Positions 4,883-63,035 of a stretch of DNA of 64,000 nt are shown here, in pieces. A program made the translations under genes and the position numbers. Positions within the stretch are counted from its first letter, which is position 1, and the number at the start of each line of letters is the position of its first letter. The notes below the pieces were generated by a model. The model saw nothing but the letters and a program-made list of their open reading frames with translations. It was not told the DNA's origin and searched no databases. The stretch spans positions 7,626,001 to 7,690,000 of the forward strand of contig CM102286.1 in NCBI GenBank assembly GCA_046563655.1, written 5' to 3'. This stretch comes from Yuukianura sp. NJ FZ-2021 (lineage: Eukaryota).

Positions 4883-5959
4883 GCCGGAACAACCAAAAGC
4901 AAATTACCGCGAAAACCCCAACATTCTACACTTTGAACAGCACTTCCGAGTGAATACCAGTAATTCGGATATGTACTGTACGTAAAATGGTGGTTCCTAA
5001 TGTCTAACTTTATACTGTAACTTAATCGAAAATGGTCTGAAAATTCTAGTGCAGTTTTTTTTGTACTTCATTTGCATGCTCGTTTCCAAAAATATGAAGA
5101 CGTATTTCAATTTGTAAGAAGTCGATAGTTTTATAGTAGGTTAGCTAGTAATGATTAATGCAATTTTACCCGCATAGCTGTTAAGTATTTTTGACGTACT
5201 ATACGAAAAACGTCTTCTCTGTAAAACCTTTTTTTTTTTGTTTTACACTGTAACGCTTCAAACGCAAATCATTCGGTGGGTTTCTTTAATGTCGAAAACG
5301 AATTAAAAATAAACAATTTATTAGAATTACTAGTTCGGAAAATTGTACACTTTTGTAATTGTAAAGTAATTTATTTTTCGGTCCCTATCTGACCCTGACA
5401 AATTCGTTTAAAACACACGAGGTTGATAAGCGGCATTAGAGAATGACTATTTAGGTTAATCTTACGCAATATTTTTTCTAGAGGATTACACAAGAATTTA
5501 TTCGCTGGCGTATCTGTTGACTTAGGTCGACCGAACAGATCCTGCTGGAGATTCATAATTTCAACATCTTTCATTAGTCCATGTCATAAAAGAGAGTATC
5601 TGTTGCTAACATTGGCAAATTGGAGTATGTCCTCGTGATGTGCTAAAACCGCGAAAGCCGCAAGCGAAGGAACATGAAACATGATACACGTAATTACATA
5701 TGTAAATCACGTTACGGAAATTTCCACAAGTGGCGTGGCGGCATTTACTATTCATCAGACTCTAGTATTTATTCATTAATGTCTAGAGAAAATAAAATAA
5801 TATTATCTAAAGCGCGTCAAGCTTTTAGCGTTTGTTCCCCAAACTTGTCTGATCCCCCAAAGGTTGAGGAGACCAAAAGGGACCTTTCGACTTAAAAACT
5901 TTTTAGATTAGTGACCGTTCCATCTCTGTGACAGGATTTACACTTTGGATTGAAAAAAC

Positions 5960-6800
5960 CTGGGGGTTCTGGAGATATAGACCTTATAAGTTGCATAATG
6001 GGGTCGCTCGTGCTATTCGGGTCTATAACTCCAGAACCACTGGAGCGATTTTCAATCTGTCTTCACATTTCTACTTCACATATTCCAGGGGTGTCTAATC
6101 AGTGTCCAGCTTGACCGGATGTTGTCCAGGTCCGGGTCAAAGGTCAAGGTCAAATACAATTTTGACAGAAATCGGGAAAATGACCTATACAAAAGTTGTT
6201 CATCTCATCGAGACGAACAACTTTTGTATAGGTGACCTTGACCTTTGACCTGGGGTTCTGGAGATATAGACCTTGGAAGTTGCATAATGGGGTCGCTCGT
6301 GCTATTTGCGTCTATAACTCCAGAACCACTTTACCGATTTTCAATCTGTTTCCACATTTGCGTTTCACATATTCCAGGGGTGTCTAATCAGTGTCCAGCT
6401 TGACCGGAAGTTGTCCATGTCCAGGTCAAAGGTCAAGGTCAAATACTTTATTTACGGAAATCGAAAAAATGACTTCTACAAAAGTTGTTTATCTCATTGG
6501 GCTGAACAACTTTTGTAAAGGTGACCTTGACCTTTGATCTACGGTTACAGAGATACAGACGATAGAAGTTGCAAAATTGCGTCCCTCGTCCTACTCGGGG
6601 AAGCATGACCTACTTTATGTTTTTCTCCGAGTCCGGCTGTCTGTCTGTCTGTCCGTCTGCTTGTCTGCCTGTCTGTCCGTCTTCCTGTCTGTCCGTCTTC
6701 CTGTCTGTACTATAACTATACCTCCGAAACCCCTGGACCGATTTGCAATCTGTCTTCGTAAATCGGTTTGTCATAGCCTGGGGGTGAGGACACAATTTCC
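5960..6800. mobile_element. Non-autonomous Helentron-associated (HINE/DINE-1-like) element: ~289-bp tandem units with internal inverted repeats, followed by a (CTGT/CCGT)n microsatellite
   Basis: Units start near 5961, 6251 and 6540 (degenerate). Each holds nested IRs. A GTCY-type microsatellite at ~6636-6708 is followed by another partial unit (ataactatacctccgaaacccctggaccgatttgcaatctg). This layout matches HINE/DINE-1 elements; the termini were not resolved. Confidence 0.6.
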
Positions 6801-6995: not shown

Positions 6996-7310
6996 TATCC
7001 TTCCCGATCTCTAATTTTTTTTTGGTTGCTAGGGTTTACCTTCCCTTCCCGATCTCTAATTTTTTTTGGTTGCTAGGGTTTACCTTCCTTTCCCGATCTC
7101 TGATTTATTTTGGTTGCTAGGGTTTACCTTCCCTTCCCGATCTCTAATTTTTTTTGGTTGCTAGGGTTTACCTTCCCTTCCCGATCTCTAATTTTTTTTG
7201 GTTGCTAGGGTTTACCTTGCTTTCCCGATCTCTGATTTATTTTGGTTGCTAGGGTTTACCTTCCCTTCCCGATCTCTAATTTTTTTGGTTACTTGGATTT
7301 TCCTTCCCAT
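6996..7310. repeat. 44-bp minisatellite, ~7 copies
   Basis: GGTTGCTAGGGTTTACC recurs at 7024, 7068, 7112, 7156, 7200 and 7244, with a degenerate copy at 7287. Confidence 0.95.
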
Positions 7311-7899
7311 TACTTAATTTTTTTTAAAATAAAATAAAAAACATTTTTTCTTACCCTCCAAGACTTGACATGTTCACCAAGGTCTCGATTTCGTCACGGC
7401 ATTGAAAATTTGTTGGGCAAGAGAAGTGCCCTCCGCGGTTGTGGCAAAAAATTGCCCGGAGCAACTTAAAAGTAAGAAAAGTTATTCTCACTTAATCCCG
7501 AAAATAAATTTTGGCACTTTAGTATTAGATTTATTACGCATAGTTAACTGTGATCCCAAAATGCGTGATGTCTAGGCCAGGACTTGGTGCAATGTTTAGA
7601 AGGCCGGTTCCTCGCAGAGCCACATATCTTGTGGGATTTCGGATAGTGTCATTGTGGATTTGACAGGCGTATCGGTGGTTTTTAATTTGTGTAGCATCCC
7701 CCAGGTTATGGTCGTCTGCAACGAATACAAATTAGATAACAATTTACCGTAAGTAAATTAATAAACATAGCATTAGTAATTCAAAATGCATAATTGAGGC
7801 TCGGCGCTCGCTAATTTACACAAAAGTCAATTGATACTCTAAAATTTCATCCTTTTCCATTATCAAGAGTTGATTCAATATTTGGAAATCGACTGACGC

Positions 7900-9029
7900 T
7901 GTGACGGGACAGAGAACCTGCAGTACAGGGAAAGACAGTAAGATATGCCAAAGGGGTCTTGGTAGCTCAGTGGACAGAGCAAGCTCCCCGGAATGGAGAT
8001 AGGCGTGGGTTCGATTCCCACCCAGACTCATATTTTTGGCATAGCGTTGGGCTATACTGTCATATGTGGCGACCTGGGCCGAGACTGTCTGGGCACATGA
8101 AACCTCTATAAGAAATGCATAGCAGTGCAAACCTGGATCCGTGAGGTCTCCAGTCAGGCACCACTCCAAAGGCCGCTGGGTGAAGCGGACCGGCGGGGGT
8201 GTATTTCTAGGGGCGTAATGTGTGACGGGACAGAGAACCTGCAGTACAGGGAAAGACAGTAAGATATGCCAAAGGGGTCTTGGTAGCTCAGTGGACAGAG
8301 CAAGCTCCCCGGAATGGAGATAGGCGTGGGTTCGATTCCCACCCAGACTCATATTTTTGGCATAGCGTTGGGCTATACTGTCATATGTGGCGACCTGTGG
8401 GCCGAGACTGTCTGGGCACATGAAACCTCTATAAGAAATGCATAGCAGTGCAAACCTGGATCCGTGAGGTCTCCAGTCAGGCACCACTCCAAAGGCCGCT
8501 GGGTGAAGCGGACCGGCGGGGGTGTATTTCTAGGGGCGTAATGTGTGACGGGACAGAGAACCTGCAGTACAGGGAAAGACAGTAAGATATGCCAAAGGGG
8601 TCTTGGTAGCTCAGTGGACAGAGCAAGCTCCCCGGAATGGAGATAGGCGTGGGTTCGATTCCCACCCAGACTCATATTTTTGACATAGCGTTGGGCTATA
8701 CTGTCATATGTGGCGACCTGGGCCGAGACTGTCTGGGCACATGAAACCTCTATAAGAAATGCATAGCAGTGCAAACCTGGATCCGTGAGGTCTCCAGTCA
8801 GGCACCACTCCAAAGGCCGCTAGGTGAAGCGGACCGGCGGGGGTGTATTTCTAGGGGCGTAATGTGTGACGGGACAGAGAACCTGCAGTACAGGGAAAGA
8901 CAGTAAGATATGCCAAAGGGGTCTTGGTAGCTCAGTGGACAGAGCAAGCTCCCCGGAATGGAGATAGGCGTGGGTTCGATTCCCACCCAGACTCATATTT
9001 TTGGCATAGCGTTGGGCTATACTGTCATA
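7900..9029 (+). mobile_element. Tandem-array TRIM (non-autonomous miniature LTR retrotransposon) with tRNA-derived LTRs, Helenus/TRIMp3-like
   Basis: Four 165-bp LTRs (7900-8064, 8221-8385, 8544-8708, 8865-9029) with TGTGAC...GTCATA ends, and three 156-158 bp internal regions. PBS TGGCGACC sits 2 nt after each of LTRs 1-3, and a G-rich tract precedes each next LTR. 4-bp TSD ACGC at 7896-7899 and 9030-9033. Confidence 0.9.
7954..8030 (+). ncRNA. tRNA-like Pol III unit inside LTR1, repeated in all four LTRs; not a canonical tRNA
   Basis: A box TAGCTCAGTGG at 7963-7973, B box GGTTCGATTCC at 8008-8018, D stem GCTC/GAGC, T stem GTGGG/CCCAC and a bulged acceptor stem. The anticodon arm is aberrant (CTCC-CCGGAAT-GGAG). 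A T5 run lies at 8033-8037. Confidence 0.75.
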
Positions 9030-9429
9030 ACGCCTTTGAACCATTCATGACGCCTTTGAACCATTCAGAAAGAAGCAATTTCATAATTACATTAATAAAA
9101 TCTTTGACTTTTTACGCACTCATTTTAGTTTTGTTCTAAAAATGTAGTTTTGGACTAGTATCTGCTTTGGAAAAGTGAATTGAGAATCATTCTTTTTAGC
9201 AAATTCCTTTCAAAACATTAAAATGAATTCCAATCCAACGCTTTTGGGTATTTAGGATGAGGCGCAGAAGCATCGGAGTTTAGAATGATAAAGAAATCTT
9301 TGAAAATAATCCACAAAGACTTTAGTAGTAAGCACAAATCGCCAATTGACCCGTTAAAGTCAAAAGTCATCAACACGTTAGCGGTCGTTTAGATCTTTGC
9401 CATTTTCAGTTAAAAAATAATCTCACCCG

Positions 9430-10800
9430 TGTCAATCAGAAACGCGAAAAGTGTCAATTTGAATTTGCGAAAGCTGTGTTGAAGAGCGACAGCTTTAAAT
9501 AATTTCACTATTTCTTATTTCACAATTATATAGGTACCTCCATTGCATTTATGTGTTCATGCACTCATATAACCAACATTTTAATTCAAATATACTTACA
9601 ATTGTTGAGGACGATGTTAATCCGTCCCAACGGATTATCCTGCATAGAAACGGATATTATTAGCTCAGTTTGGGTTCCAAGAATCTTGATGCTTATATCA
9701 TACAGCACAATCGCACTCACGAAATTGGTCCAACCCCATAGGTTGGAAGTGTAGATTATTTGTACCACTGTAGCGTCGTCTGAGCAGAGTCGTTCATTTT
9801 TCGGTTTGTCTTGTAAAAAAGGTCCAGCTGGGTCCAACCCTTTGAAAATCAAATTTTAGAAATCAGATCTTCACCAAACTGTAATCAGCCACGGTTATTA
9901 AAAAGGTTAACTTTTGTGGTTTGTCTAAATTACAAGGAAGGTTTCCAAATTGTGTTTCCTTTAAAGTTCAATAAATTTGCAGGTTGACGTAAACCGGTAT
10001 ATAAGCTGCGCATGCAAGAACGACTTGGTAAAAAATCGTTAACTCAGTTCTCACAGCTTTAAAACTAAACTTAAGACAGACGATCAAAAAACGAAAACCT
10101 AAAAAACCTAACCTAAACACATGGGCATTTGTTACCACTCGTAATCGGGTTTCACGTCAACCGCCTCAGTTTTCAAATCGAAAAATAACAAACAAAATTT
10201 AAACTTTCTTTGTGACGAAGACGATCCACCAGAGACCAGATGCGTCCACTACTGTGAGGTACATGCCTAGGTTGAGCTAAACTACGTCAAAGTGTCAACG
10301 TCTGTCTCAGAAAAGGTTCTCAATTTTTTTTCTGCGCCCGAGTTATGGCTTGAATCTTACCATCGCTTCTCCACACTTTCTGTTGATTTTTTTCGTGGAT
10401 AAGTTTTCCGGCAAGCCCGCAGATATGGGCGCATAAGCTAAATCCGACGAAAGTGGTCCGTTGAAGGGAAATTTTGTTTCCATTTACAAGGGCAGTGGTG
10501 ACAGTCTCCAATTCGTCAGCGATTATATCATTTCAATTTGAACTATAAAAGCTTCACTTACGCTGTCAATTGCGGTAAAATAATCTTGGCTTGCGCAGTG
10601 GTTCCAGTCCACTACAATAACATTACAAGTAGTAAAGTTAATCAGGTCGAAGAGTGTCTGGAATGGGAAGAAAGAAGTTGCATCTGACTGGTATCCGTGG
10701 ACCAGGACGTACACTGGCAACGCCTGTGAAATATACTTTGACATTTCATCTACGGGCGTTGTAGAAGTGAACTGATTCACTGACCACCCATCTTCACCAG
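9430..10800 (-). CDS. Pancreatic-lipase family (neutral lipase) gene, divergent or possibly pseudogenised
   Basis: Exons encode VLVHGY, CNVIVVDW, FVGFSLCAHICG, G|LDPAGP (in-frame splice), RLCSDDATVVQIIYTS and NPLGRIN. The 5' and 3' ends were not resolved. Confidence 0.7.
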
Positions 10801-21585: not shown

Positions 21586-22491
21586 GACTTTTTCGACCTT
21601 AAAACCAGTAAATCAGAATTACGGAACGGAACTTGAAGCACCATTTTGCCAGAACAATTTTTTGTAGATTTCAGCTCTTACCAGAATGTTGATTGTGCTG
21701 CTCAATAAACTGAGGTTTTATTAGCAAATCTTTTAAGTCTTTCTTAAAGAATTTTCAACTTTACAATCCTCCCTTTTCTGCTGGTTCGATTCTAAAAAAA
21801 ATCCGCAAAATTTAGCTTTCAAAATCCTAGCGCCTAAATGCCTCCGTTAGTTCAACTTCCAGAATCCAAAAGGAAGTTCATATACGAATTCTGTATTCAC
21901 TTAAAACGTACTTGTAGATGACGGCAACGACGATAAACATTTCTCAAATTGAGAGCGAGATGCAATGCAACTTACCGTTTCAGTAACGTAATTGAATCTA
22001 AACTCTAATAGTGAGTGAAACTTTATTTTAAAAACAACGTCAACAATCAATTTGCCATAAAAAAAAATAGCTTCATAATTCGGAATCCGAATTTCAGAGA
22101 CAGAAAAATGTCTACTAGATGCTTCATATAAATCCAAAAGTTATTGACAAAATTTAACCTTTTGATTAAACACATTTCATTTTTGTTATGAGGGTTCAAC
22201 TTTACAAATGTCAATTTTTATGACAGTTGATAAAAGTTAGCACCCAAACGTTGAGTTTTTGTCTGATGAATTGATTATCAGTTGTCAAGTTATTGTGGGT
22301 AACCTTCCCTAGAAGGCATATAATTTATTAACTTATAGAAAAAAGTAATTAGCATGTTGAAAGTTTTAGGGTTGCGTTTCACACGCCAGAAGCAACTTGG
22401 CGTTTGCACTATAGTTCAACTAAATTGCAAAGAATGGTTTCAAAATTTGGTTGTTTGTTGATTATGGTATATTGTTCAAACTTCTTGGACG

Positions 22492-25400
22492 TTGAGGTTT
22501 ATAACTGCGACCGAAGTATTGCGCATTATAGTTTCGACTTTTGCAAAAGTTCACGTCTTCGGAATATTTTCACATTCTAGAATTATGTATTCCCGAATCA
22601 CCGCATCAGAATTTTTTGTGTTCATTTTTTCTGGCAGTACATTTGCCAACTCCAGTCGCATCAAATACGTAAACCTAAATTCCTATTTAGGCGGGAGTTG
22701 GGTTAGTTGCTACAACCATGTGATTATGTACTCCGCTAGTGCTGACATTTACAGTTCACATCCGCTAACTTTACAACTTTATTCAGAAATGGCGAAACGT
22801 AAGAGGTTGGAGAAGAGCTCCTGTGTCAATGTGACAATTGTAGGAGACGTCGTAGACACTACAGCTCCGTCATTTTGTGCACCAGATAGTCTTCACTACA
22901 TGACAAAAAATATCAACTGCATTGGCGTTGCTGCAGTTTTTCCGTTTACGCATGAGGAGGAAACGGACATGTTTGAATACTTGACGCAATATTGGCATAA
23001 CTTTGCTTATTACAAGAAAGAGGAGGGAGGGCGCACAATCGTTGAAAAGGAATGGAATGATCTATCACCGGAGTACTACATGCACAATACTCGATTGTTG
23101 CTAATAACTGACTCGTGCAGTTTCCAATATAAACTTGATCCATATTTACGCTTAAACACTTTGCTAAGTTTGAAGCTACACTACCCCCGATACTTGTGGC
23201 GAATCATTGTGAGAGTTGTTTACAACAAGAGATGCCATGGTACAGAGATCAATGGTTTTGAACTGAAAGCTGGAATTTCCGATAATTTTTCCAAACGATA
23301 CCATTTCGATGTTGCGAACACTATGCCACTCTTCATTAACTTTGAATTGATCCAAAGGCAAGTGTACAAAACTATTTCAATGACACTAACTAGAGATGGG
23401 ATCAGAATAAGATCGATGCCTGAGTTAATGCTGTCATCTCTCGAGGATTTCCTGTTGGCTGAATTCAATAGAACCTACTCGGAAGAAAAACTTCTTGATA
23501 TAATACGACAAGGTAATGTTTCGAATTTTCAGTTTTTGTAGTAACTCTCAAATTGCAAAACTTTTTTCTCGTAATACCGTAAACTTGAGTTTTCGAGAGA
23601 GCTAAACTTTAAGCAAATCGTTTTGGCTTTGGGTAGTCTCCTCCAATACTTCTGAAGACATAGTACAATCATAATGTTTACGTTAGGCGTCATCCAAGCC
23701 ATCCAATCACAGTGGGCTAAATTTAAGAAAGAATCCGCTAGAATTACTTAAAATATAATGTCAAAAACATTATGTTTGCTTTAAAAGTTGAGTTGATAAC
23801 CTGCTATGAACATGTTTACTGTAGACACCATGAATGTACGCCTCCACCGTGGTACTTACCGCAACAGCAAGGGACGCACACGGCACATTCTGCTCAAATT
23901 TCTTCAAATGTATGGAGTCACTTGTCATCAAGAAGGCATGCATTTTGGATTCGAAGACTACACAAAGCCATTCGCCAAAAGTACATGGCTGGTCATGGGT
24001 ATTTTATTTGTGTTGGTATGTGTATTCTTCTTGGCGTGCCCCCAATATAACGCAGTATCGCTACAAGTCCCCGTGTTCTTTTGCGCCACACTCTTGGAGG
24101 TGGCTTACTCATTGACAAATATTCCCGGCATTCGCGGAAAAGGAATACAAGTTTTTACCGCAATATTTCTGTTAATGGCCCTGGTGATTACGAATGGCTA
24201 CAAAGGAATTGTTACTACCTCGCTTGCACTCCCATTTCCGGAATATGAACTGGAGTCTATTGAAGAAGCACTAGGTCGAAGCTACACATTCATTCCAGGT
24301 AGGTACCAGGTCAAAACCGCTGAACCAAAAGCCATCACTCAATAACACTCGAAAAAAATAATCGCCTCCAGTAAGGAACTCCGCCGCAAAAAAAAAACTT
24401 GTAAAAACACTTTTTTTTTCACTGTGTAGGCAACGGTTTTTTTTTCTAGAGGAGGGTTTTGTCAAGCGCGTTAATTTTTTCGACTGCTATTGAGCGACGA
24501 ATATTGGTTCGGTTGTTATGGGTTGCTCCGTTATTCTAGATCCACATACAGACGAGCTATACTGGCTTTACTGTCTACGCTCAAATGATGGAGACGGATG
24601 GAGCAGCATACGGCAGTCACTTGAACAACGCTTGGCACAAAATGGACTAACATTCAAGGAATACATCGTCTCTCGTTTACAGTTCAGTTTCCTAGTACAA
24701 TTCTTCTTCTTCCAAGAAAGAACGGATGCTGTCTACAACATATTTGATGACAGGATGTCTTCATACTTCAGTAAAATGCAACAAGGTGGTAAAACCAACA
24801 CCTCTATGTACAAATTGCTCTACAACCTAACACTCTTGCCCTGTGATCTCGCCTACCATCACAAACTTGCGCAGTGCAAAAAGGAATTCGGAATCGCGCC
24901 AACTTACTTGGACACTACAGTTGCAAAGAAATTCCTCGAGTATGAAGCAGAATTGAGTTTTGGGAAATCTGTTTCTAGAAATTTCTATTACTTTTTGGAC
25001 AAAACTTTACTTTCGGAGGATATGGTACACAGTTTTAAGGTCCAAACTGGTGACCAATACGACATTTCACCGAGTTTGAAACGGCTCGAGCAGTCAGGCG
25101 TTATGATTAGCCGTTACAGTACTTTTACGTACATTCATAACAGGCAACAAATTAAGTTGGCACTGGAAAGGGCGGATAAAAATGTTGGTGGTCCGATGCA
25201 ACTGAGTCTGGGTTCCAGAATATTGTTAGTGTTTTTCCTTTTGCCTTTTGGATCTCTGTTGGCCCTATTGTCTGCAACAGTTGAAGCTGTTATCATACCT
25301 AAATACGTTGCACTTAAAACTCTTGTCAAAACTAAACTGACGCATCGCAACGTCAGTCAACGTCATTCGGATTCGCCGGTTGAAGTACTTCTGCTACTGT

Positions 25401-25525
25401 GTAAACCAGTATCTATGCTTAACTTTGGCTTTGCTACAGAATCATCCGGTGAGATCAAGCCAGCATCAGATTCAGAACTGAACAAGCAACCCACTGAGGT
25501 CATCACTTGCGTAGATATAAAATAG
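22492..25525 (+). CDS. Divergent ionotropic (chemosensory) receptor-like membrane protein; integrity uncertain
   Basis: Pre-M1 YTKPF...TW plus a hydrophobic M1, a pore-like FCATLLE segment, M2 LVITNGYKGIVTTSLALP...LESIEE, S2 end RLEQSG and M3 LSLGSRILLVFFLL, after a long N-terminal extracellular ORF. The junctions between the three ORFs and the start codon are not cleanly resolved. Confidence 0.65.
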
Positions 25526-26398: not shown

Positions 26399-29300
26399 TT
26401 ACATTGGAGCTTGGTTGGACGAAGGAGGGCCTATGGGACCCAAGTCTGTATTATTCTTCAGAAAGTATCTGCAATTCAATTCAAAAAAATCCTTCAATAA
26501 TTTATCACATGTAGAACACTTCAACGTTAGTCTTACTTTTCCAACTTGGCGATAATATGCTTGCCGTAAGTGTATTTGCGAAGCTGAGCAAGATGGGGCC
26601 GGATTCTCTGCATCAGCATTTTCCGTTGAGATGGTTCTGCGACATCGATCATTTTTTGTACAACGTAATTTGCGTATTGGTCTTTCATCATAATGTTCAG
26701 TGGACTTGTAGTAACGCTGAAAACGAAAAATTTTCATTACAATTATGGCAATGGCATACGGATTTCTACCTATGACCTACACACCTTAAATATTCATACG
26801 CAACATCAAATTTTTATGTAACTAAAAAATGTTGGTAAATACCCGTTTTCCGTATTGTACGCCGTTACTTCATCAATGAGATACGTTTTGTCCTGGCGAG
26901 TGGCGTATGTAACACATTTTTCTACAACGTTTGAAGCAAATTTGTGCTGAGAGTATGAACAAACTTTTCCTTTTACAATAGCTACAATCTTCGTTTTATC
27001 CTCGGGCTTTCCATGCTCCAGGATATGCTGCACAACGTAATTTCCATACTGATCTTGAATCAGTGCTTCGGCCTGTTCGTGGAGTTCATCTAGAATGGGC
27101 TGCGTCTGTTCAACGGTGCAGTGTTCCAGGATTCGCTGAATCACGCGACAACCGTAGGGGTGCGTCGAAAGTGTGTAAATCTGTCAGAAACAATCATTGA
27201 TGTTGAAAACAATGGAAAACTACAACGTAGTAAACTTGGATTCAGTGTCACGTGACATACCTGTCCATGAAAAGCATTGATGATGAAACTTAGGGAATGA
27301 GGATCAACGCATTCGATGCATTTTTGAACAACGTGGTTTCCATTCTGGTCCTTGACACACTTCAGAACATGACCATCCAGTTCCCTCACAATCTCCTTTT
27401 GCAAATCAGTTCCAATCGATTCTAGAGCCTTCTGAATAACGCGACATCCGTACATTTGTAGAGCAAGCGGAAGGACGTGACCTAAGATTTTAGTAGCAAG
27501 CGCAGTCTTCTGTTCTGGTGATCCGAATTCAAAGAATTTCTGAATAACGTAATTTCCAAAGACGTCCGTCATCAATGGGTAAGCTGCTCCAATGATCTCA
27601 GTGAAAACGAGCGTCTTTTCGGCTGGTGTAGCTCGCTCTAATTTCTGTTGGATGAATCTGTAACGAAACGAAATTCACAAATCATGCTCTCCTTTCCGTT
27701 ATACTATTGATCACAATTGAAGTTCTTGTGTTACCTGGATCCATGCTGATCCTGTGAGAACTCGAACATGTGATTTACGAGGTCACGGAGTTGGAGATTA
27801 GGAAATCGATTATTGCGAAAGTCTTCGAGCAGTCTAGAACGCCCACTTGGTTTGTCCAGTGAGTTGGACTGACGTCCAATTTTTGGAAACAAAGGACTCG
27901 TAGACCCGAAAAGTGCAGTTCCAGCACGAAGCCCTTTGTCGCCCATCAGCCTTGAACCTCCATTCATCAGTCCTGGTGGTGGAGAGCCTAAGAAATAACA
28001 TAAGGATTAAAACCTAACATTATAATTTGAAACTTTAACACAACGTCACAGTAAGTTGTCCAGCGTCACTTTTGAGCCGGAGGTTAGGTGTAAAGACAGA
28101 AACCTCAAGAAAGTTAAATTTATACAATGATTCAAAATTACCCAGCCCATAAGAACCCGGAGTTCCCCATTTTCGTTCCGAATCGAATGAATCCCGCCGC
28201 AGCCCACCTAAACCATCCAATCCATCACCGATTAATTTAAAATCCATCACCCTATTCTAGTGTACCGGAACATTTAAAACTCTCAGCCCAAAAAAAAAAG
28301 TTGCTGTGAAAAGTATAACTTGGACAGCATTTTCCTTCATTAACAACGTTTTAGGCTTAAGTTATGTTCCAAAGTTACTGCTTAAGTAGTGACCTGTAAT
28401 AACTGGCGAAGCATTTTGAGAAGCAGGATTATAAGCCGGACCGCCATATTGTGGACTGACCCCAAACCCTCCTATCAACATGAAATAAAACAATATTTAA
28501 AATTGAACTGTTTCATAATGTACAAGCTGAGCAAATGTTTCCTACACGTTCATTTTAAAGCATCCGATCATAAGACTTATAATAAGCAGTTACACGCATG
28601 TAGAATCAAAAGTTGTCGTACCAGGACTGTTGACCAAGATGGACGTTGGAGACAGGAGACGCAGCGGAGTTGCTCCGCGACCCATAACAAGCCCGCCATT
28701 TTGATCGTAGTAGGCTGGAATCACTTGATACTGGCTTGGTTGTGGGCTCAGTTCAGTTCCTGGAGGACTCAGAGGTCGGCGGGAAGTTGGAATTTGCCCA
28801 GTAGTTGCTCCAATTACGCCTGCAGTGGGGTAGATTCCCCATGGGGTCATTCCGTAGTACCCAGGCATAACAGCCGAACCTGCAAAATTTAATACAATCA
28901 TCATCTAAAACTGTTCTTCTTTTGTAAGAAATGTTTTCTCTCGACCACAATTGAAACGTTACTCCAAAGAAAATAAAAAATAGGACTTGATGTTTCCTTT
29001 TGTCATTTGTAAATTTGAAGCTTAGAGCAAATCACGCAGCATGTACTGCGATTTCACAAGGTATTCCACCCAAGGAGACTTCGCAGTGATGGATAACATA
29101 ACTTGAGTTAAAACAATTTCCCTTTTTGTCTCATTTTGAATTCATAGAATCAACTTTCAAAAATGCTTGAGAAAGTACAGTGGTGTTGTAAAGTAACAAT
29201 AATCAGAGTAGCGATTCATGGTCGCTACACTTCTGCTATAACAATAAAAACCCAAAGACAATCGTGAACGTGATGCTGCAAAACAGGAAATCCTTTGTTT

Positions 29301-52824: not shown

Positions 52825-55800
52825 TTAGTACTCACCTCCGTCCTGATCTGACGATTCTGGTGTCGGCGGCAACCGATTTTCCTTGTTCGGACTTCCAGTT
52901 TCGATCATGACTGGAGCCGTGGTGAAGGTGGCATTAGTTGAATTGCCGTAGTAGCCCATACCTACGTTGTAGGTGGTGGCTGAAAAGCCACCAGTGGTGG
53001 TCGGAGTGGCACAAAATGGCAAATAGGAATGATAGGTGGGGAAGCAGTGGACCACGTCGTGTCCCACCCCAGGGACTAACCCACCTCCACTCCCACTCCC
53101 ATCACTGTACAACGGAACCTCTCCCACCCGCTGCGTCTGCCCTTCCCAAATGGGGGACGGTGTCAGAGGACAAGTGAGGATCATACTGTCATCTCTACTG
53201 GAAACAAGTCCAGAGTCATCTCCAGACACTCCAAGTTTGTAGAGGCCTCTGGAACGAGGAGCATGGTAGGGGAACATGGTTGTCACTGCAGCCACGGTGG
53301 GATCGGCCCCACTTGAGTAGTGGCCACTACTAGGGGAGTATAGTCGTCTGGCAAGAACGCCGTCTGAGGTCAATGGTGTTGGAGACTGTGACCTTTCTAG
53401 GACAGTTTCAGAATTCGGTTTTTTCGATCTTTTTCTTCCCTTGGTGGGGCTGAGACTAAGTTGTGTTGAACTTGGGTATGAGCTTGGAAGGTTGGAATGT
53501 TGATGCTGATGCTTGGAAGTATTTTGTGACGTCGATACGGACGAGGACAGTGACCAAGTTTGTGGAGACGAAACGTCACTTCCGCGGTTAGTGTAACTGC
53601 TGCCTAAACTGTTGGTGGTGCTATGATAAGAAGGGTGGTAGTGGGTCCAATACGTTCCGGGATGAGGGTACCCAGCGGTGGGGGCCAAATGGAAGTCAAA
53701 CGGTGGCGCAGGGGATCCCGCCACACTAAAGTCTATCGGTGTTTCTTTTTTCGGTTGCACATTGGTCATGGATGATGCCATTTCATAAGATCTGTGATGA
53801 TAGCTGTATGGGTGTCCCAGGGTTCCGGTGTAGGGGGGCGCAGGGGTCATGAGGGGCGGTGACCCATAAGCACCGTTGGCCGAAGGTGAATCTGGTGATG
53901 ACTGGAGATGTCCAGTTTGAGGGGAAGTCGTTCCGTAGTTGAGTAACTGCTGCGGAGTTGGGAAGTATGCAGCCGCGGCGGCCAGTCGAGCTGCTGCTGC
54001 TGTAGCGGTGGTCGGTGAACCTACAGCGGCTTCCATGATGCTGCTTGGACTCCCTTCGGGGTATGCCAGCCCGTACTGCAGCTTCGTTTGAACTGTGTAG
54101 TAATGGTAAATCCAAGCGTTGGCTCTCATCACTGCGGCTTCTCGTTCGCTAAAACCAAAATCAAAATTTTTTATTCTTTAATTTTGTTTTTATATAAACA
54201 ATATTTCTGTAAAAAGATTTTTTTTTCCTCCATTTTTTTGCGTTGAGAGAAATTTCGCCGTCTAAAACACGAAATTGGCGTCGGGAGTTTTTTCTCTCCC
54301 GAAAGCATTTTTTGTATAACTAAAGTGCATTTTTGAGATGGGTTTTCAAATAAATTTTTAAAAACACTCGAGTATCCACTTCAATTGAAAATTCAACAGA
54401 AGCTGCTGGAGATTCATTTTGATACTTGAGCGGTAGGGAATTTGTGCTTAGAATAAACCATGAATTGGCACAAAATTGTGAATGAAACCCCTCTGAGATC
54501 ACACAAGGAGCATCTTGAACAATCGGATCCTCCAGTAGGACAGCATGGAGGTTTAAGCTGTTTACAAAAGCATAACTTCCAACTTATGCTTAAAATATCT
54601 CAGAAGAATCCATTCAAATGAAATTGAAAATGAAAAAAAAATCAAATTCTCTAAATGACCCTGCCTCAGTTGAAATTGTTTCACTTCGTCAATAATCTTT
54701 TGGCTTTCAAAGTTGCAACGCTCTGTTGAGCATCGTATTGAATTGTGAAGATTTCAATGCTTCAAAGAATATTGGTGAAAATGAAACAAAAACTGACCTT
54801 AGAACTTGGTTAGTGGCAACGATGACTGACTGTTGCTGAGATGGTTGGGCAGTGGTATTGGTTCCAGAGCTGGATTCTGGACTGTCCTTGACTTGAAGTA
54901 CACAGTGGACCCAAATCCAACCTCCACTTCGCTTTTGCATGCGCACGAGCAGAATGCAGGATTTTTCCTGCTCAGACTGACTAACTAAAAATCAACAAAA
55001 AATTCAATTTCAAAAAACCAATTTAAGAAAGGGAGAAAAATCGGTTCACACAAGTCACTTTTGTGGAAGGAAAAACGGACGCAAAAATATAATTCTCGAA
55101 AGAAAAAAAATACTGGGGAAAGTTGCACACGGATACAGTTTGAGTTTCAAAAAGTTCAAAACGTTTAGGTAGTTTTTGATATAATGTAAGAATTATAGTC
55201 AATTTGGACTGAAACTTTTTTTAGCATTTTTTTTGTTCATAAGTTAGCGTGGGAAACAGATTTTCATTGAACTTTTCGTTATGAATGGAGGTTGGTGTAC
55301 TTTCTCCGGACAAATTCCGTGTTCACGACGTATAAGTCGTGAGTGTTCGTGGCTAAGGTCATGGGCTCGTTAACTTTGGATCGTCACTGCCCGTGTGAAG
55401 TGCGCGTGAAGAAGGAAAGAATCAATTACTTAATCGATGTTTGCTTTGAGCCTCTCGCATGTAATTCCAGTGGATGAGTTCGTACCACGAAATCCCTCCG
55501 AGCTCTGAACGTGTGTAGCCCAAGTAGTACTCACCACTATTCAGAAAAAATAGAAAATAGAAACAGTCAATTAGTCAGGTCAAAACAGATCATTTCATAA
55601 AGGCAGACAGAGCCCTCAGGACAGATGAGTCAATTCGTGCAACACCTTCCAAAATTAATTGATTTTGGTCTTTCATTAAAATTTTTCCTGCTGTAACTCC
55701 CTACGCCTACTAAGAAACTGTTCGGTGGAAACATTACATTAATTTTAGTAAGTACTCAATAACGCGCAATCTCAAAATCTTTTTGAAATTTTGATTTCGG

Positions 55801-60200: not shown

Positions 60201-61937
60201 TACCTGCAGATCTCATAAATCTGAGGCGTACTTAAGGGCAGGAGGAAGATAGGGATCGAAGGCTGCTTAGAAATGAAGAATAATTACATGTCAAATACTT
60301 TTGAAATTTCCCAGATGGAGTTAATAATGATGATTAGCGTGGAAATCATATCAAATGAGTGGTGATCTGCACCATTCCCAGTTTCCATATCACTGCAATG
60401 TCTTGAGGTTACAATTGGTCATATAGCACCATACTACAAATAACTATTCAAATCCAGCTGTAATTGTAGCTTGACGGAGTGGAATTCTTTTTAAGAGGGC
60501 AAAGGTCATTGGTGGATGAGCTTCGTCGTGATCAATTGAGACCCAAAGATATCATCTCTTCCACCACCGGTGGAATATGAAAGGCACAAAACAAGTTGTG
60601 TATTGGAGATGCAGTGGAAGATGAAGTCAGTGATCTGATCAGTGATCACTGACTGCACAAACTGCTTGAATTTGGCATCAATAGGAACAATACTCAAGTG
60701 CAACGCTCAAGGTAGAATCCCAGACGAACCGAAAGCATAATGGTCCAATACCTAATCTTTTGTTTTCGTATCTCCATCTTGCATCTCTGTGTTCCATTAA
60801 CTTATGGAATCACTTGTAACGTTGCTTATTACGAACAATTATAAATTTGAAACTTATGGAATGAAGAATTCGGTCATTGTGGACCAAATCGCATCGCTCT
60901 TCATCTTGTCCGAAATGTCACGCTGAATATAAGTAAAGAACAATGAAGAACGAAACATGGAAAAAATACAGCAAGTGAAGTCTCCGTTTTTTTCATCTTT
61001 GCATCTTTTTTTCACAACGCATTCCAGAACGCATTAGTTGGAATTTTAAACTTGAAGAATACGAAGTTTGCTGTGCTGGCTTTGTATCTTTATATTTTTC
61101 CAACATAGAATAATTTTTTTTCGCCAAATTTTGAACTTTTCATACCAATTTTTGTGCACCAAAATTTCGCAACTACTAACTGTGGGTGTCGTACATGCTA
61201 CTAACTGCCTGGAACGCGGATGTTACACAGTGTTAATTGTTAAACGTGGGAGTTTATGGTGATCACAACAAGACACAACGTAGCGTAAAAGGAAATTGTT
61301 AAGTTATGAACTGGATAGAACGTAGGCCCCCTGGACATGAATCCATTGAGACGCATGATCCCTCGGGTCCTCGGAGTCAATGCCAGGAAATTAAAGGTTA
61401 GCCCATTGTTAGGGCCATCCATTATTATTGTTTCTCTGTGGCCAAATGATTGAAACCTCATGTCAAGTGCTAGGAGCACTTTGGATTAAGCGAACGGCTC
61501 GTTTATAATGGAAATCACCCTGTAATTAACACATCATCAACTCACACTTTCGCTAACTACGCCACAAACGGTGTTGTAAATCTTAGCCATTACAATAAAA
61601 ATGTAAGACAAATTGCTAAAAATGAAATACGCTTTTTAGAGACGTGTGACGCACTAAACATTTTTTACTGTGAATGTTGGAGGTGTAGCGTCTGTTGTAT
61701 ATTCTGAGCAATTGGTTGTTCATTTGACATAAATTTCATTTCTATGAATCTTTCCATAATTTAGCGAAGCAACACAACAAAAATGATTCGTCAATTTTTA
61801 TTTCACTCTTCTTTTTTTTGCAGTGATCGTCATGGAAACACGTCCTTTCCAAAAACTGTATGTTGAATCACATGCGTCTAGTTTCGAAATTGTTTTCCTA
61901 AAGTAATAAAAAGTTACAAACACAGAACAACGTCATC

Positions 61938-63035
61938 ATGGCGGAATGCTTGGAACTGGTGACGAAATACTTCCAGGAACCGACGGAGCTCAAAATGACT
62001 GAAAAGAAAAATTCAATTCGCAATGATTCGGAAAACACCGAAAACCAAAACGCCCAACGTCCGAGTTCCGCTGCGACAAAAACGTCGGCTCAAAAAATCC
62101 AAGTGCCAAGTCCCCTGTCCAAGACCCCTACGCAACAGGACGTGCTAGACTACATTCAGCGGGTCAATTTGTACATCAATCGTCTTGGTTACCACCATAA
62201 GGGTGAACCAGGAATCCGGGTCCTCACGCACCTTTCGTTCCGTCACCACATGGAAACGGCACGTCAAATCATCAAGGCCGGTGAAAATATCAAATGTCTC
62301 CATGCCATGCTTCTCGGAATCTACTTCACCAATTCTACTCCACTCGTCGAACGATTTCCAATCAACTTCAAGTCAAAGTTGAACGGAAAAGAGTATCGCC
62401 ATGTCGTTCTTGGAATTTATGCGTATGGTGCGTATGGAGCCTTAGGCCTTAGCCGTGATGCAGGACTCCAGGACAAACCGCCAACATTCTTACGACTCTC
62501 GGAACTGCTCAAGGATTTCGCTAGCTGCTACACTGCAAGCGGGCATACTTTGTTGGAAATCAAAGTTGGTGGAATCATTCCACGTGACACGACAACACAG
62601 CGTGGCATTCCTTGGCGAGTTGGCGTCCTGAGTATGAGCAAATTTCCGGATCTGAAGGGATTCGATACAGAAGCGGACAAGTTGGCACGGCTAGTCAAGG
62701 CCCAGATGAGTCAAACGAGCATTCGGCCTGCTCTTCGTTCAGCCTCAAAGCCCCCGTTGCCACCGGCACTTCCCAGCACAAGCGGATTGGCTCGTCAAGG
62801 TTTACGGCTGACGGTTGCTGGAAGTTCTGGAAAGCTCAAAGCAGTCACCTCCGCTGGTATCAAGAAGAAGTCAAAGTCCGACACAAAAATCGTTTTGATC
62901 CGACATGCTCCAACTTCATCAAAATTAACCTCAACCAGTTCAAATCGACGTCTTCACAAAACAACGTCTGGTACCAAAGGTGCCAAAGCAAAAAAGAAGA
63001 AGGTACCCAAGTACAAGCGGTTTGCGGAACCCTAA
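61938..63035 (+). CDS. VASH: Vasohibin-like tubulin tyrosine carboxypeptidase, single coding exon
   Basis: 365-aa ORF with IQRVNLYINRLGYHH, NIKCLHAMLLGIYFT, ERFPINFKS, YRHVVLGI, GALGLSR and LSELLKDFASCY...H: the vasohibin Cys-His-Ser catalytic motifs plus a basic C-terminal tail. Confidence 0.9.
   Translation: MAECLELVTKYFQEPTELKMTEKKNSIRNDSENTENQNAQRPSSAATKTSAQKIQVPSPLSKTPTQQDVLDYIQRVNLYINRLGYHHKGEPGIRVLTHLSFRHHMETARQIIKAGENIKCLHAMLLGIYFTNSTPLVERFPINFKSKLNGKEYRHVVLGIYAYGAYGALGLSRDAGLQDKPPTFLRLSELLKDFASCYTASGHTLLEIKVGGIIPRDTTTQRGIPWRVGVLSMSKFPDLKGFDTEADKLARLVKAQMSQTSIRPALRSASKPPLPPALPSTSGLARQGLRLTVAGSSGKLKAVTSAGIKKKSKSDTKIVLIRHAPTSSKLTSTSSNRRLHKTTSGTKGAKAKKKKVPKYKRFAEP

What the first reader, a model, noticed from the sequence alone, without database searches (positions are those of the whole stretch)
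7900..9029. Tandem-array miniature LTR retrotransposon whose LTRs are built around a tRNA-like Pol III gene
Seen: what looks like a ~321-bp satellite parses exactly as LTR-int-LTR-int-LTR-int-LTR. The 165-bp LTRs have imperfect inverted ends (TGTGAC...GTCATA). A PBS TGGCGACC lies 2 nt after each internal-flanking LTR, and GGCGGGGGTG...AGGGGCG precedes the next LTR. One 4-bp TSD (ACGC) brackets the whole array, and no retroelement protein is encoded. Each LTR holds A and B boxes in a tRNA fold. Established: 4-bp TSDs and a TGGCGACC PBS (complementary to a tRNA-Arg 3' end, GGUCGCCA) are typical of Ty3/gypsy elements. Plant Cassandra TRIMs carry 5S in their LTRs and form tandem arrays. As I recall, the Helenus group carries tRNA-like LTRs. 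Inference: a SINE/LTR hybrid parasite mobilised in trans by a gypsy element, possibly an undescribed family in this lineage.
Basis: partly seen in the sequence, partly recalled or inferred. Interest (0 to 1): 0.85.

Follow-up and report, generated by a model that had tools for sequence, protein, structure and literature searches.

The report
Tandem tRNA-bearing miniature LTR retrotransposon (Helenus-type)
This is a short tandem array of a tiny, protein-less LTR retrotransposon whose repeats each carry a degenerate tRNA-like Pol III gene, a kind already described as "Helenus", here apparently in a host group where it has not been reported.

Summary
Window 7900-9029 is LTR-int-LTR-int-LTR-int-LTR, with 165-bp LTRs and 156/158/156-bp internal parts that are 99-100% alike. 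An exact 4-bp repeat (ACGC) brackets the array. TGGCGACC lies 2 nt after each internal-flanking LTR, and a G-rich tract precedes each next LTR. No retroelement protein is encoded.

Each LTR holds a tRNA-like unit (Rfam tRNA, 40.6 bits). It has intact A and B boxes and a T5 run 5 nt downstream, but it is degenerate as a tRNA.

This architecture is the published Helenus group (Kojima 2024, PMC10886601): TRIMs with tRNA-like LTRs, 4-bp TSDs in animals, presumed Gypsy partners, and tandem arrays already noted. So the kind is known.

What may be new is the family and the host:
- Five of six longer words (7-16 nt) from the element are absent from the published consensus file; only the 5' terminus TGTGACGG(GA) is shared.
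- Pumilio exons in the window are closest to springtails, which are not on the published host list.

Contigs from the same sample show diverged LTR copies that start exactly at the LTR's first base with unrelated flanks.

Not tested: the Gypsy partner, the primer tRNA identity, Pol III transcription and TSDs of other copies. No whole genome was available.

The parts
7896..7899 (.). 5' copy of the 4-bp flanking direct repeat (putative target site duplication) ACGC
   Evidence: Read directly. It is identical to 9030-9033. The array boundary is fixed by loss of homology at 7899/7900.
7900..8064 (+). LTR 1 (165 bp), termini TGTGAC...GTCATA. Inferred layout: U3 about 7900-7955, tRNA-like R about 7956-8037, U5 about 8038-8064.
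   Evidence: identical to LTR2 and LTR4. The U3/R/U5 split is inference from the tRNA start and the T5 run.
7956..8028 (+). tRNA-like unit of LTR1. The same unit lies at 8277-8349, 8600-8672 and 8921-8993. Box A is at 7963-7973 and box B at 8008-8018.
   Evidence: Rfam RF00005 40.6 bits (gathering 29), 4 of 4 LTRs. ARAGORN calls tRNA-Ser(gga). It is degenerate: C at position 33, one acceptor base missing, no long variable arm (alignment).
8033..8037 (+). T5 run, putative Pol III terminator, 5 nt after the tRNA-like unit. Also at 8354-8358, 8677-8681 and 8998-9002.
   Evidence: It is the only run of 4 or more T in the 321-bp unit. 85% of 2000 dinucleotide shuffles of the unit have none. The terminator function is inferred.
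8065..8220 (+). Internal part 1 (156 bp), non-coding. It holds TG + putative primer binding site TGGCGACC (8067-8074), G-rich tracts GGCGGGGGTG (8192-8201) and AGGGGCGTAATG (8209-8220) as putative polypurine tract.
   Evidence: The last 12 nt are 75% purine. PBS and PPT functions are inferred.
8221..8385 (+). LTR 2 (165 bp)
   Evidence: identical to LTR1.
8386..8543 (+). Internal part 2 (158 bp), with an extra TG directly after TGGCGACC
8544..8708 (+). LTR 3 (165 bp), one G>A at LTR position 140
8709..8864 (+). Internal part 3 (156 bp), one substitution
8865..9029 (+). LTR 4 (165 bp), terminal; no PBS follows it
   Evidence: identical to LTR1. It is followed by ACGC and unique flank.
9030..9033 (.). 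3' copy of the 4-bp flanking direct repeat ACGC

Best explanation
Window 7900-9029 is one insertion of a Helenus-type element, now present as three and a half head-to-tail units (four LTRs, three internal parts). Helenus-type means a terminal-repeat retrotransposon in miniature (TRIM) whose LTRs contain a tRNA-derived Pol III unit ('TRIMp3').

Shown here:
- the LTR/internal architecture with exact boundaries;
- one 4-bp flanking duplication;
- a TGG-initiated PBS-like site and a G-rich PPT-like tract;
- no coding capacity;
- a degenerate tRNA-like unit with intact A and B boxes and a T5 run just behind it in every LTR;
- other, diverged LTR copies in the same organism that begin at exactly the same first base next to unrelated DNA.

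Inferred mechanism, step by step:
- Pol III, recruited by the A and B boxes, starts at the tRNA-like unit of an upstream LTR.
- A fraction of transcripts reads through the T5 run of that LTR and stops at the T5 run of the next LTR.
- This gives an RNA of about 400 nt with the form R-U5-PBS-internal-PPT-U3-R. The tRNA-like unit plays the part of R, and the T5 run plays the part that the poly(A) site plays in Pol II-driven elements.
- A host tRNA ending ...GGUCGCCA primes minus-strand synthesis at TGGCGACC.
- Reverse transcriptase and integrase come in trans from an autonomous Gypsy-type element, whose integrase makes the 4-bp duplication.

The array most likely grew from a single element by unequal recombination between LTRs (sister chromatids or homologues), which keeps the one outer duplication. 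Insertion of a multimeric cDNA made by template switching or from read-through RNA is the alternative. The tRNA-like unit is not a working tRNA.
For: Structure: as set out in the observation check.

tRNA-like unit: 40.6 bits against Rfam tRNA in 4 of 4 LTRs, and ARAGORN. Boxes A and B occur only there in the window. The single T5 run lies 5 nt after the unit, and 85% of 2000 shuffles of the unit have no T4+ run at all.

Degeneracy (alignment): C instead of U at position 33, one base missing from the 3' acceptor strand, and a Ser anticodon without the long variable arm. The fold is no better than shuffles.

No protein: 0 of 81 ORFs of 85 aa or more in the window match a retroelement family.

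Other copies (contigs of 4 runs from one sample):
- X1 records 2 and 3 and X2 record 10 are about 90-92% like the LTR. They start exactly at 7900, preceded by 210 to about 1400 nt of unlike sequence.
- X1 record 5, X4 record 25 and X3 record 23 leave the LTR at position 162 of 165, go on with TCA, and then continue into unrelated sequence. That is a canonical TG...CA LTR.
- X4 record 26 is a diverged copy that spans the end of an internal part and an LTR.
- No listed loose end is a poly(A) or simple-repeat tail.

Known kind: PMC10886601 defines Helenus by these features. It reports 4-bp TSDs in all animal families, similarity of animal PBS regions to Gypsy elements only, sizes of 311-1263 bp (this element: 165+156+165 = 486 bp), and tandem arrays of LTR-11_DR. 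Published bivalve and wasp Helenus LTRs begin TGTGACGG (7 occurrences; TGTGACGGGA 3 times) and end GTTACA or GTCACA.

Array growth by LTR-LTR recombination, template switching and unequal crossing-over is the account given for Cassandra arrays (PMC7215508, passages).
Against: - The LTR ends in TA, not the canonical CA. One published family, Helenus-6_PiIm, also ends in TA.
- The purine tract is interrupted (AGGGGCGTAATG), with only 60% purine over the last 15 and 30 nt.
- Only one insertion could be tested for a TSD, so the duplication rests on a single 1-in-256 coincidence.
- The internal part looks nearly confined to this array. Contigs covering it have about 3 times the depth of the single-copy flanks in X1 (128 against 41.5 and 37.7) and X2 (318.5 against 116.1 and 113.3). 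Shorter contigs at the internal/LTR junction give 5-8 times. The tool warns that contig depth is not a copy number. Evidence that the full element, rather than its LTR, has transposed repeatedly is therefore thin.
- A T5 run right behind the promoter should stop most Pol III transcripts after about 80 nt, so the full-length RNA needs read-through.
- All contigs come from one sample, probably the one the window was assembled from, so they do not confirm the array independently.
- No partner element, no host tRNA and no RNA data were available.
Confidence: 0.85

Rival explanations
1. Same element type, but the retrotransposed RNA is made by Pol II or by read-through from outside. The tRNA-like unit is then not the promoter of the genomic RNA. 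It would be a fossil of a tRNA-derived SINE that once inserted into the LTR, or a module that yields a short ~80-nt Pol III RNA, or one that helps packaging or stability of the element RNA.
For: The T5 run 5 nt after the tRNA-like unit should end most Pol III transcripts inside the same LTR. PMC10886601 states that Pol III promoter function of Helenus has not been validated experimentally and proposes origin by SINE2 insertion into a TRIM LTR.
Against: Boxes A and B are intact in a unit that is otherwise degenerate as a tRNA. This is the pattern expected if the promoter, not the tRNA, is under selection, and PMC10886601 reports the same pattern across families. The rest of the 321-bp unit has no other T4+ run, so a read-through transcript would stop at the next LTR; composition alone would also give this.
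Confidence: 0.25
2. The array was inserted as a multimer and did not grow in place. A concatemeric cDNA, made by template switching during reverse transcription or copied from Pol III read-through RNA spanning several units of a donor array, was integrated once.
For: One 4-bp duplication brackets the whole array, and the units are 99-100% alike. Both routes are proposed for Cassandra arrays, where concatenated transcripts were detected (PMC7215508). Each unit has only one terminator, so read-through gives multimers by construction.
Against: Unequal LTR-LTR recombination after a monomer insertion gives the same end state. Nothing in this one locus separates the two routes. Contig depth suggests there may be no other array of this family to serve as donor.
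Confidence: 0.2
3. Not a retrotransposon. It is a local tandem duplication (minisatellite) of a segment containing a tRNA pseudogene or tRNA-derived SINE, and its LTR-like parse is coincidental.
For: It is a tandem repeat of 3.5 units in a repeat-rich intergenic stretch. Other arrays lie at 5958-6597, 6637-6708 and 6999-7308. The internal part seems almost confined to this locus. tRNA-core-only matches (7961-8021) from another repeat family raise the depth there.
Against: The half unit that closes the array is exactly the segment that starts with TG and has inverted ends. Exactly that segment is followed 2 nt later by TGG..., and the array is flanked by an exact 4-bp repeat. Diverged copies of just that segment begin at its first base next to unrelated DNA, and others end within 3 nt of its last base. 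There is no poly(A) or simple-repeat tail. The 5' terminal 8-10 nt equal those of published Helenus LTRs.
Confidence: 0.06
4. A tandem cluster of working tRNA genes.
For: Four tRNA calls above Rfam's gathering score, each followed by a T5 terminator.
Against: The score is only 40.6 bits. Position 33 is C, one base is missing from the 3' acceptor strand, and the anticodon GGA (Ser) lacks the long variable arm. The MFE fold is not a cloverleaf. Such anticodon/isotype disagreement is what PMC10886601 reports for most Helenus LTRs.
Confidence: 0.02

Closest known systems
Helenus (TRIMp3), Kojima 2024, Biology 13:119 (PMC10886601)
   Same: Short non-coding element with two or more LTRs that each contain a tRNA-derived sequence with conserved A and B boxes. 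PBS just after the 5' LTR, G-rich tract before the 3' LTR, and a 4-bp TSD as in all animal families. Its size of 486 bp lies within 311-1263 bp. The LTR 5' terminus TGTGACGG(GA) matches several bivalve and wasp families, and a T-run follows the tRNA-like part. Tandem arrays are noted for LTR-11_DR.
   Different: Five of six longer words (7-16 nt) from the element are absent from the published consensus file. The sixth, a 7-nt part of the PBS, occurs twice in unrelated internal parts (a word broken by a FASTA line end would be missed). The LTR ends in TA, not CA. The PBS is TGGCGACC, and per the paper only hymenopteran families use tRNA-Arg; the Arg assignment here is recalled, not tested. The host is probably a springtail relative, whereas the published arthropod hosts are all Hymenoptera. 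Repbase and Dfam could not be searched.
Cassandra TRIMs of plants (5S rRNA-derived Pol III unit in the LTR) and their long tandem arrays (PMC7215508)
   Same: A small-RNA gene with Pol III promoter and terminator inside each LTR. Arrays have the form LTR-int-LTR-int-LTR and resemble a small-RNA gene cluster.
   Different: The small RNA here is tRNA-like, not 5S; Rfam finds only tRNA. The host is an animal, the TSD is 4 bp, and the array has only four LTRs.
tRNA-derived SINEs (SINE2)
   Same: A tRNA-derived head with A and B boxes, non-autonomous, probably the evolutionary source of the LTR's tRNA-like part (proposal of PMC10886601).
   Different: No poly(A), simple-repeat or LINE-derived tail. 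The element is bounded by direct LTRs with TG... ends, a PBS and a short fixed 4-bp duplication.
Tandemly arranged ordinary TRIMs (for example Wukong of maize, PMC4528315; search listing and start of abstract only)
   Same: TRIM units arranged in tandem, attributed to unequal crossing-over.
   Different: Those have no small-RNA gene in the LTR.

Membership tests
Helenus / TRIMp3 (Kojima 2024) | Short non-coding element bounded by direct LTRs (TRIM architecture) | tested here: met
   Four 165-bp LTRs and three internal parts of 156-158 bp. A monomer would be 486 bp. No Pfam match in the ORFs across it.
Helenus / TRIMp3 (Kojima 2024) | tRNA-derived sequence with conserved box A (TRGCY...YGG) and box B (GGTTC) inside the LTR | tested here: met
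   Rfam tRNA 40.6 bits in 4 of 4 LTRs. TAGCTCAGTGG and GGTTCGATTCC are present in each.
Helenus / TRIMp3 (Kojima 2024) | PBS just downstream of the 5' LTR, complementary to a host tRNA | tested here: inconclusive
   TGGCGACC lies 2 nt after 3 of 3 internal-flanking LTRs. No host tRNA set was available, and the window has no other tRNA. The tRNA-Arg assignment is recalled. Figure S2 of the paper is a PDF that was not readable.
Helenus / TRIMp3 (Kojima 2024) | Polypurine tract before the 3' LTR | tested here: inconclusive
   GGCGGGGGTG and AGGGGCGTAATG are present. The last 12 nt are 75% purine, but the last 15 and 30 nt only 60%, and the tract is interrupted.
Helenus / TRIMp3 (Kojima 2024) | 4-bp target site duplication (animal families) | tested here: met
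   ACGC on both sides of the array, at boundaries fixed by homology. This is one insertion only.
Helenus / TRIMp3 (Kojima 2024) | Interspersed copies and solo LTRs with the same boundaries and their own TSDs | tested here: inconclusive
   Three contig records start exactly at 7900 with unlike flanks. Three listed records (X1 record 5, X4 record 25, X3 record 23) end at LTR position 162 plus TCA. Both ends of one copy were never seen together, so no further TSD was tested. No genome is held.
Helenus / TRIMp3 (Kojima 2024) | Autonomous Gypsy partner sharing the PBS region | not testable with these tools
   No reverse transcriptase or integrase among 81 ORFs of the window, and no genome is held.
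A named, published Helenus family (consensus level) | Sequence similarity to a consensus in the supplement of PMC10886601 | tested here: not met
   Zero occurrences for five longer words from the element (8, 8, 13, 14 and 16 nt). A 7-nt part of the PBS occurs twice, in the internal parts of two Pinctada families with otherwise different sequence. Only the terminal TGTGACGG (7 occurrences) and TGTGACGGGA (3) are shared. Words split by line ends would be missed, and families already in Repbase (for example ULTR-1_NVi) are not in the FASTA.
tRNA-derived SINE (SINE2) | 3' tail of poly(A), simple repeat or LINE-derived sequence; no LTRs | tested here: not met
   The unit has no A4+ run and its only T4+ run is the T5. 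The structure is LTR-int-LTR.
Cassandra / Ajax | 5S rRNA-derived sequence in the LTR | tested here: not met
   The permissive Rfam scan of 7000-10000 gives only tRNA and one weak miRNA match outside the array.
Retrozyme | Hammerhead ribozyme in the repeat | tested here: not met
   No hammerhead match at E up to 1.
Functional tRNA gene cluster | Canonical cloverleaf, U33, and body matching the anticodon's isotype | tested here: not met
   C33, acceptor strand one base short, and a Ser anticodon without the long variable arm. The MFE fold has z = -0.39.

The most novel reading that the evidence does not exclude
This would be the first Helenus-type element in a non-insect hexapod (a springtail relative), arisen independently of the hymenopteran and bivalve lineages. 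Its layout also makes the Pol III model of LTR retrotransposition directly testable. The tRNA-like unit plus the T5 run would define R. Leaky termination would then produce both the unit-length genomic RNA and multimeric RNAs, whose reverse transcription yields ready-made tandem arrays inserted with a single 4-bp duplication.
Probability: 0.15. Interest if true: 0.6.

Novelty: new member of a known kind. Interest (0 to 1): 0.35.

Why it matters
Helenus-type elements inflate tRNA gene predictions. Here four 'tRNA-Ser' calls are all element copies, so recognising them improves annotation.

If the host is indeed a springtail relative, the find extends a patchily distributed group (six animal phyla, and within arthropods only some Hymenoptera) to a new lineage. 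That bears on whether such SINE/LTR hybrids arise repeatedly.

The locus is also a clean, young example, with units 99-100% alike and the duplication intact. It shows how a miniature LTR element turns into a small-RNA-gene-like tandem array. Its single T5 run per unit gives a concrete, testable model for how a Pol III transcript could serve as an LTR-retrotransposon genome.

Tried and rejected
- **Whole-genome search.** No genome is held for this window. Copy counts, solo LTRs, further TSDs, host tRNAs and a Gypsy partner could therefore not be examined.
- **Public collections.** The first 20 nt of the LTR gave 0 matches in metagenome contigs and 0 in genome contigs. A gapped pattern (5' terminus, box A, box B) gave 0 in metagenome contigs.
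- **Expression.** No RNA holder was listed among the 4 runs found, so expression was not addressed.
- **Self-priming.** I tested whether the LTR's own tRNA-like RNA, with CCA added, could prime at the PBS. The duplex energy is -11.5 kcal/mol, and 66% of 1000 shuffled PBS regions do at least as well. Rejected, in line with the paper's finding for other families.
- **Primer tRNA from the literature.** A full-text search for the 8-mer gave 1,268 papers; the 15 listed were unrelated, many of them SCoT-marker primer studies. The 11-mer and its complement gave 26 papers. The one tRNA-related hit is an internal piece of a wheat tRNA-Gln fragment. No use.
- **Other RNA families.** No hammerhead, 5S or other RNA family lies in the unit.
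- **ESM Atlas.** Closed for new sequences.
- **Earlier findings of this scan.** Nothing on this genome, this sequence or 'Helenus'. The one item returned (yeast Ty remnants) is unrelated.
- **Absence of other T-runs.** I considered this as evidence for a Pol III unit, but composition alone predicts it (mean 0.155 runs per shuffle). Only the presence and place of the T5 run count.
- **Literature on the host.** 'TRIMp3' finds only the Kojima paper among relevant hits. 'Collembola' plus 'terminal-repeat retrotransposon' finds one review on rDNA and transposable elements (listing only). 'Helenus' plus 'LTR retrotransposon' plus 'tRNA' finds 4 papers. I found no report of Helenus in springtails in these three searches.
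Full report
**1. The observation**

Tandem Repeats Finder reports one array at 7900-9029 with period 321, 3.5 copies and 99% matches. Exact parsing gives:
- four 165-bp segments at 7900-8064, 8221-8385, 8544-8708 and 8865-9029;
- three spacers of 156, 158 and 156 bp between them.

Segments 1, 2 and 4 are identical, and segment 3 has one G>A. Spacer 2 has an extra TG, and spacer 3 has one substitution.

The array boundaries are exact. Homology to the internal junctions is lost at the very base before 7900 and at the very base after 9029. The four bases outside are ACGC on both sides, which has a 1-in-256 chance at fixed boundaries.

The 165-bp segment starts with TG and has 5-of-6 inverted ends, TGTGAC/GTCATA. 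TGGCGACC lies 2 nt behind each of the three segments that a spacer follows. Each spacer ends GGCGGGGGTG...AGGGGCGTAATG.

**2. The tRNA-like unit**

All four segments match Rfam's tRNA model at 40.6 bits (gathering score 29). ARAGORN calls them tRNA-Ser(gga) and finds no other tRNA in the 64 kb. TAGCTCAGTGG (box A) and GGTTCGATTCC (box B) occur only here in the window.

The unit is not a credible tRNA:
- The model alignment shows C at position 33.
- The 3' acceptor strand is one base short.
- There is a serine anticodon without the long variable arm.
- The free-energy fold is not a cloverleaf and is no better than shuffles (z = -0.39).

Five nucleotides behind the unit lies TTTTT. This is the only run of four or more T in the 321-bp unit. 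85% of 2000 dinucleotide shuffles of the unit contain no such run, so its presence at that spot is meaningful. The absence of further runs is not.

**3. Surroundings**

The window is a gene-dense animal locus with short introns. Pfam matches include hormone-sensitive lipase, lipase, a PLP enzyme with a CBS domain, a mitochondrial carrier, Beclin, Pumilio, Ferry-3, GCD14 and vasohibin.

The array lies between the hormone-sensitive-lipase-like gene (+ strand, up to about 4566) and a lipase gene (- strand, from about 9589), next to other small tandem repeats. The array has 54% G+C against 39% for the window. None of the 81 ORFs of 85 aa or more matches a retroelement protein family.

**4. Other copies**

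No genome is held. Four sequencing runs of one sample hold the stretch. They are kept as contigs, and laying them on 7600-9300 at 85% likeness or more gave the following.
- Contigs bridge flank to LTR on both sides and cover the LTR-spacer and spacer-LTR junctions.
- The contig covering a whole spacer has about three times the depth of the flank contigs in X1 (128 against 41.5 and 37.7). A contig covering the first half has the same ratio in X2 (318.5 against 116.1 and 113.3). This agrees with three spacers and suggests the spacer is almost confined to this locus.
- Short junction contigs give 5-8 times. The tool warns that contig depth is not a copy number.
- Three records (X1 records 2 and 3, X2 record 10), about 90-92% like the LTR, begin exactly at 7900 after 210 to about 1400 nt of unrelated sequence.
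- Three listed records (X1 record 5, X4 record 25, X3 record 23) leave at LTR position 162 of 165, read TCA, and then run into unrelated sequence. That is a canonical TG...CA end.
- Two loose ends (after 8055 and 9026 in X3) continue after TCA with a similar, different spacer start, which points to a related family.
- One diverged record (X4 record 26) spans a spacer end and an LTR.
- A further repeat family shares only the tRNA core (7961-8021) and explains the 10-14-fold depth there.
- No listed loose end is a poly(A) or simple-repeat tail.
- 81 pieces and 53 loose ends were not shown by the tool.
- All runs are from one sample, probably the source of the assembly, so they are not independent support for the array itself.

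**5. What it is**

The features add up to an LTR retrotransposon without genes (a TRIM), present as LTR-int-LTR-int-LTR-int-LTR, with a tRNA-derived Pol III unit in each LTR. The rival reading is a chance LTR-like parse of a minisatellite built on a tRNA pseudogene or SINE. That reading has to explain away several things:
- the phase of the array ends;
- the 4-bp repeat;
- the TGG two bases behind the segment;
- the independent copies that share the segment's first base;
- the shared terminal 8-10 nt with published elements.

I put it at about 6%.

**6. How it likely works (inferred)**

- Pol III starts at the tRNA-like unit.
- Most transcripts should end at the T5 run of the same LTR.
- Those that read through end at the T5 run of the next LTR. 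This gives R-U5-PBS-internal-PPT-U3-R of about 400 nt, with the tRNA-like unit as R.
- A host tRNA ending ...GGUCGCCA primes at TGGCGACC.
- A Gypsy-type element supplies reverse transcriptase and integrase, which makes the 4-bp duplication.

The array grew either by unequal LTR-LTR recombination or by integration of a multimeric cDNA. Both routes are proposed for Cassandra arrays (PMC7215508, passages), and this single locus cannot separate them.

A Pol II-driven RNA with the tRNA-like unit as a passenger is a live alternative (about 25%). Priming by the element's own tRNA-like RNA is rejected.

**7. Comparison with what is known**

Kojima 2024 (PMC10886601) was read as follows: abstract, Results, Discussion, tables and legends; three word searches of the supplement; and part 8 of the supplement. 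[quoted passage not shown] Its reported features are:
- 5-bp TSDs in fungi and plants, and 4 bp in animals;
- animal PBS regions resembling only Gypsy elements;
- sizes of 311-1263 bp;
- tRNA predictions that mostly disagree with their anticodon;
- tandem arrays of LTR-11_DR.

The present element meets the testable defining features (see the membership table).

At the level of named families, five of six longer words (7-16 nt) from the element do not occur in the published consensus file. The sixth, a 7-nt part of the PBS, occurs twice, in the internal parts of two Pinctada families. TGTGACGG occurs 7 times and TGTGACGGGA 3 times as LTR starts, in bivalve and wasp families. One published LTR (Helenus-6_PiIm) also ends in TA.

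Caveats on this comparison:
- Words split by FASTA line ends would be missed.
- Families already in Repbase are not in that file.
- Figures S1-S3 (PBS alignments) are PDFs that I could not read.
- Repbase and Dfam were not available.

**8. Host**

Two Pumilio exons are 83-89% identical to the proteins of Folsomia candida and Orchesella cincta, and to four unnamed relatives. For the second exon the next best of 124 fetched proteins reach 70-76%.

The runs hold 53-236 million letters of contigs. The vasohibin ORF has only 4 relatives at E of 1e-20 or better, the best at 47% identity.

The host is therefore probably a springtail or a close relative. This rests on one gene. Table 1 of the paper lists only Hymenoptera among arthropods. 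Three literature searches found no Helenus report for springtails.

**9. Verdict**

The kind is already described, so this is a new member of a known kind, probably in a new host lineage. It is a tidy example for annotation and for testing Pol III-driven LTR retrotransposition, but not a surprise to a specialist. Interest 0.35.

Noticed in passing
window 9025-9067: A 20-bp unit is repeated 2.2 times directly at the 3' edge of the array (TRF 95% matches). The repeat includes the 3' ACGC, and its register reaches 5 nt into the last LTR (TCATA against TCATG). The second copy is preceded by TG, as is the ACGC on the 5' side. It may be a repair or duplication scar of the target site.
   Followed up: partly
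window 8396-8397: The second internal part carries an extra TG immediately after TGGCGACC, giving TG-TGG twice in a row (TGTGGCGACCTGTGGGCC). Related copies in the contigs start their internal part differently (…TCA AT GTTGGCCCGAGG…). The PBS region therefore seems to be the most variable part of the family.
   Followed up: partly
window 5958-6597, 6637-6708, 6999-7308: Other tandem repeats lie just upstream in the same intergenic stretch: a 289-bp unit x2.2 (86%), a (CTGT)n / 16-bp array, and a 44-bp unit x7 (92%). They were not characterised.
   Followed up: no
window 22462-23538 (+), 24494-25522 (+), 52828-54177 (-): Three long open frames (359, 343 and 450 aa) have no Pfam match at E of 0.001 or better. 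They may be lineage-specific exons or unrecognised elements.
   Followed up: no
window 61902-63032 (+): A vasohibin-domain ORF (Pfam E 4e-48) has only 4 relatives at E of 1e-20 or better in the 5.8-billion-protein search, the best at 47% identity. It is a divergent vasohibin.
   Followed up: partly
window 26402-27674 (-): Pumilio exons are closest to springtail proteins (Folsomia candida, Orchesella cincta; 83-89% against 70-83% for other named animals). This is the only lineage hint obtained.
   Followed up: partly
window 7961-8021 (contigs): Another repeat family in the same organism shares only the box A to box B core of the tRNA-like unit. It has its own conserved flanks on both sides, seen in X1, X2 and X3. 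It could be a true tRNA gene family, a SINE or a second Helenus family.
   Followed up: no
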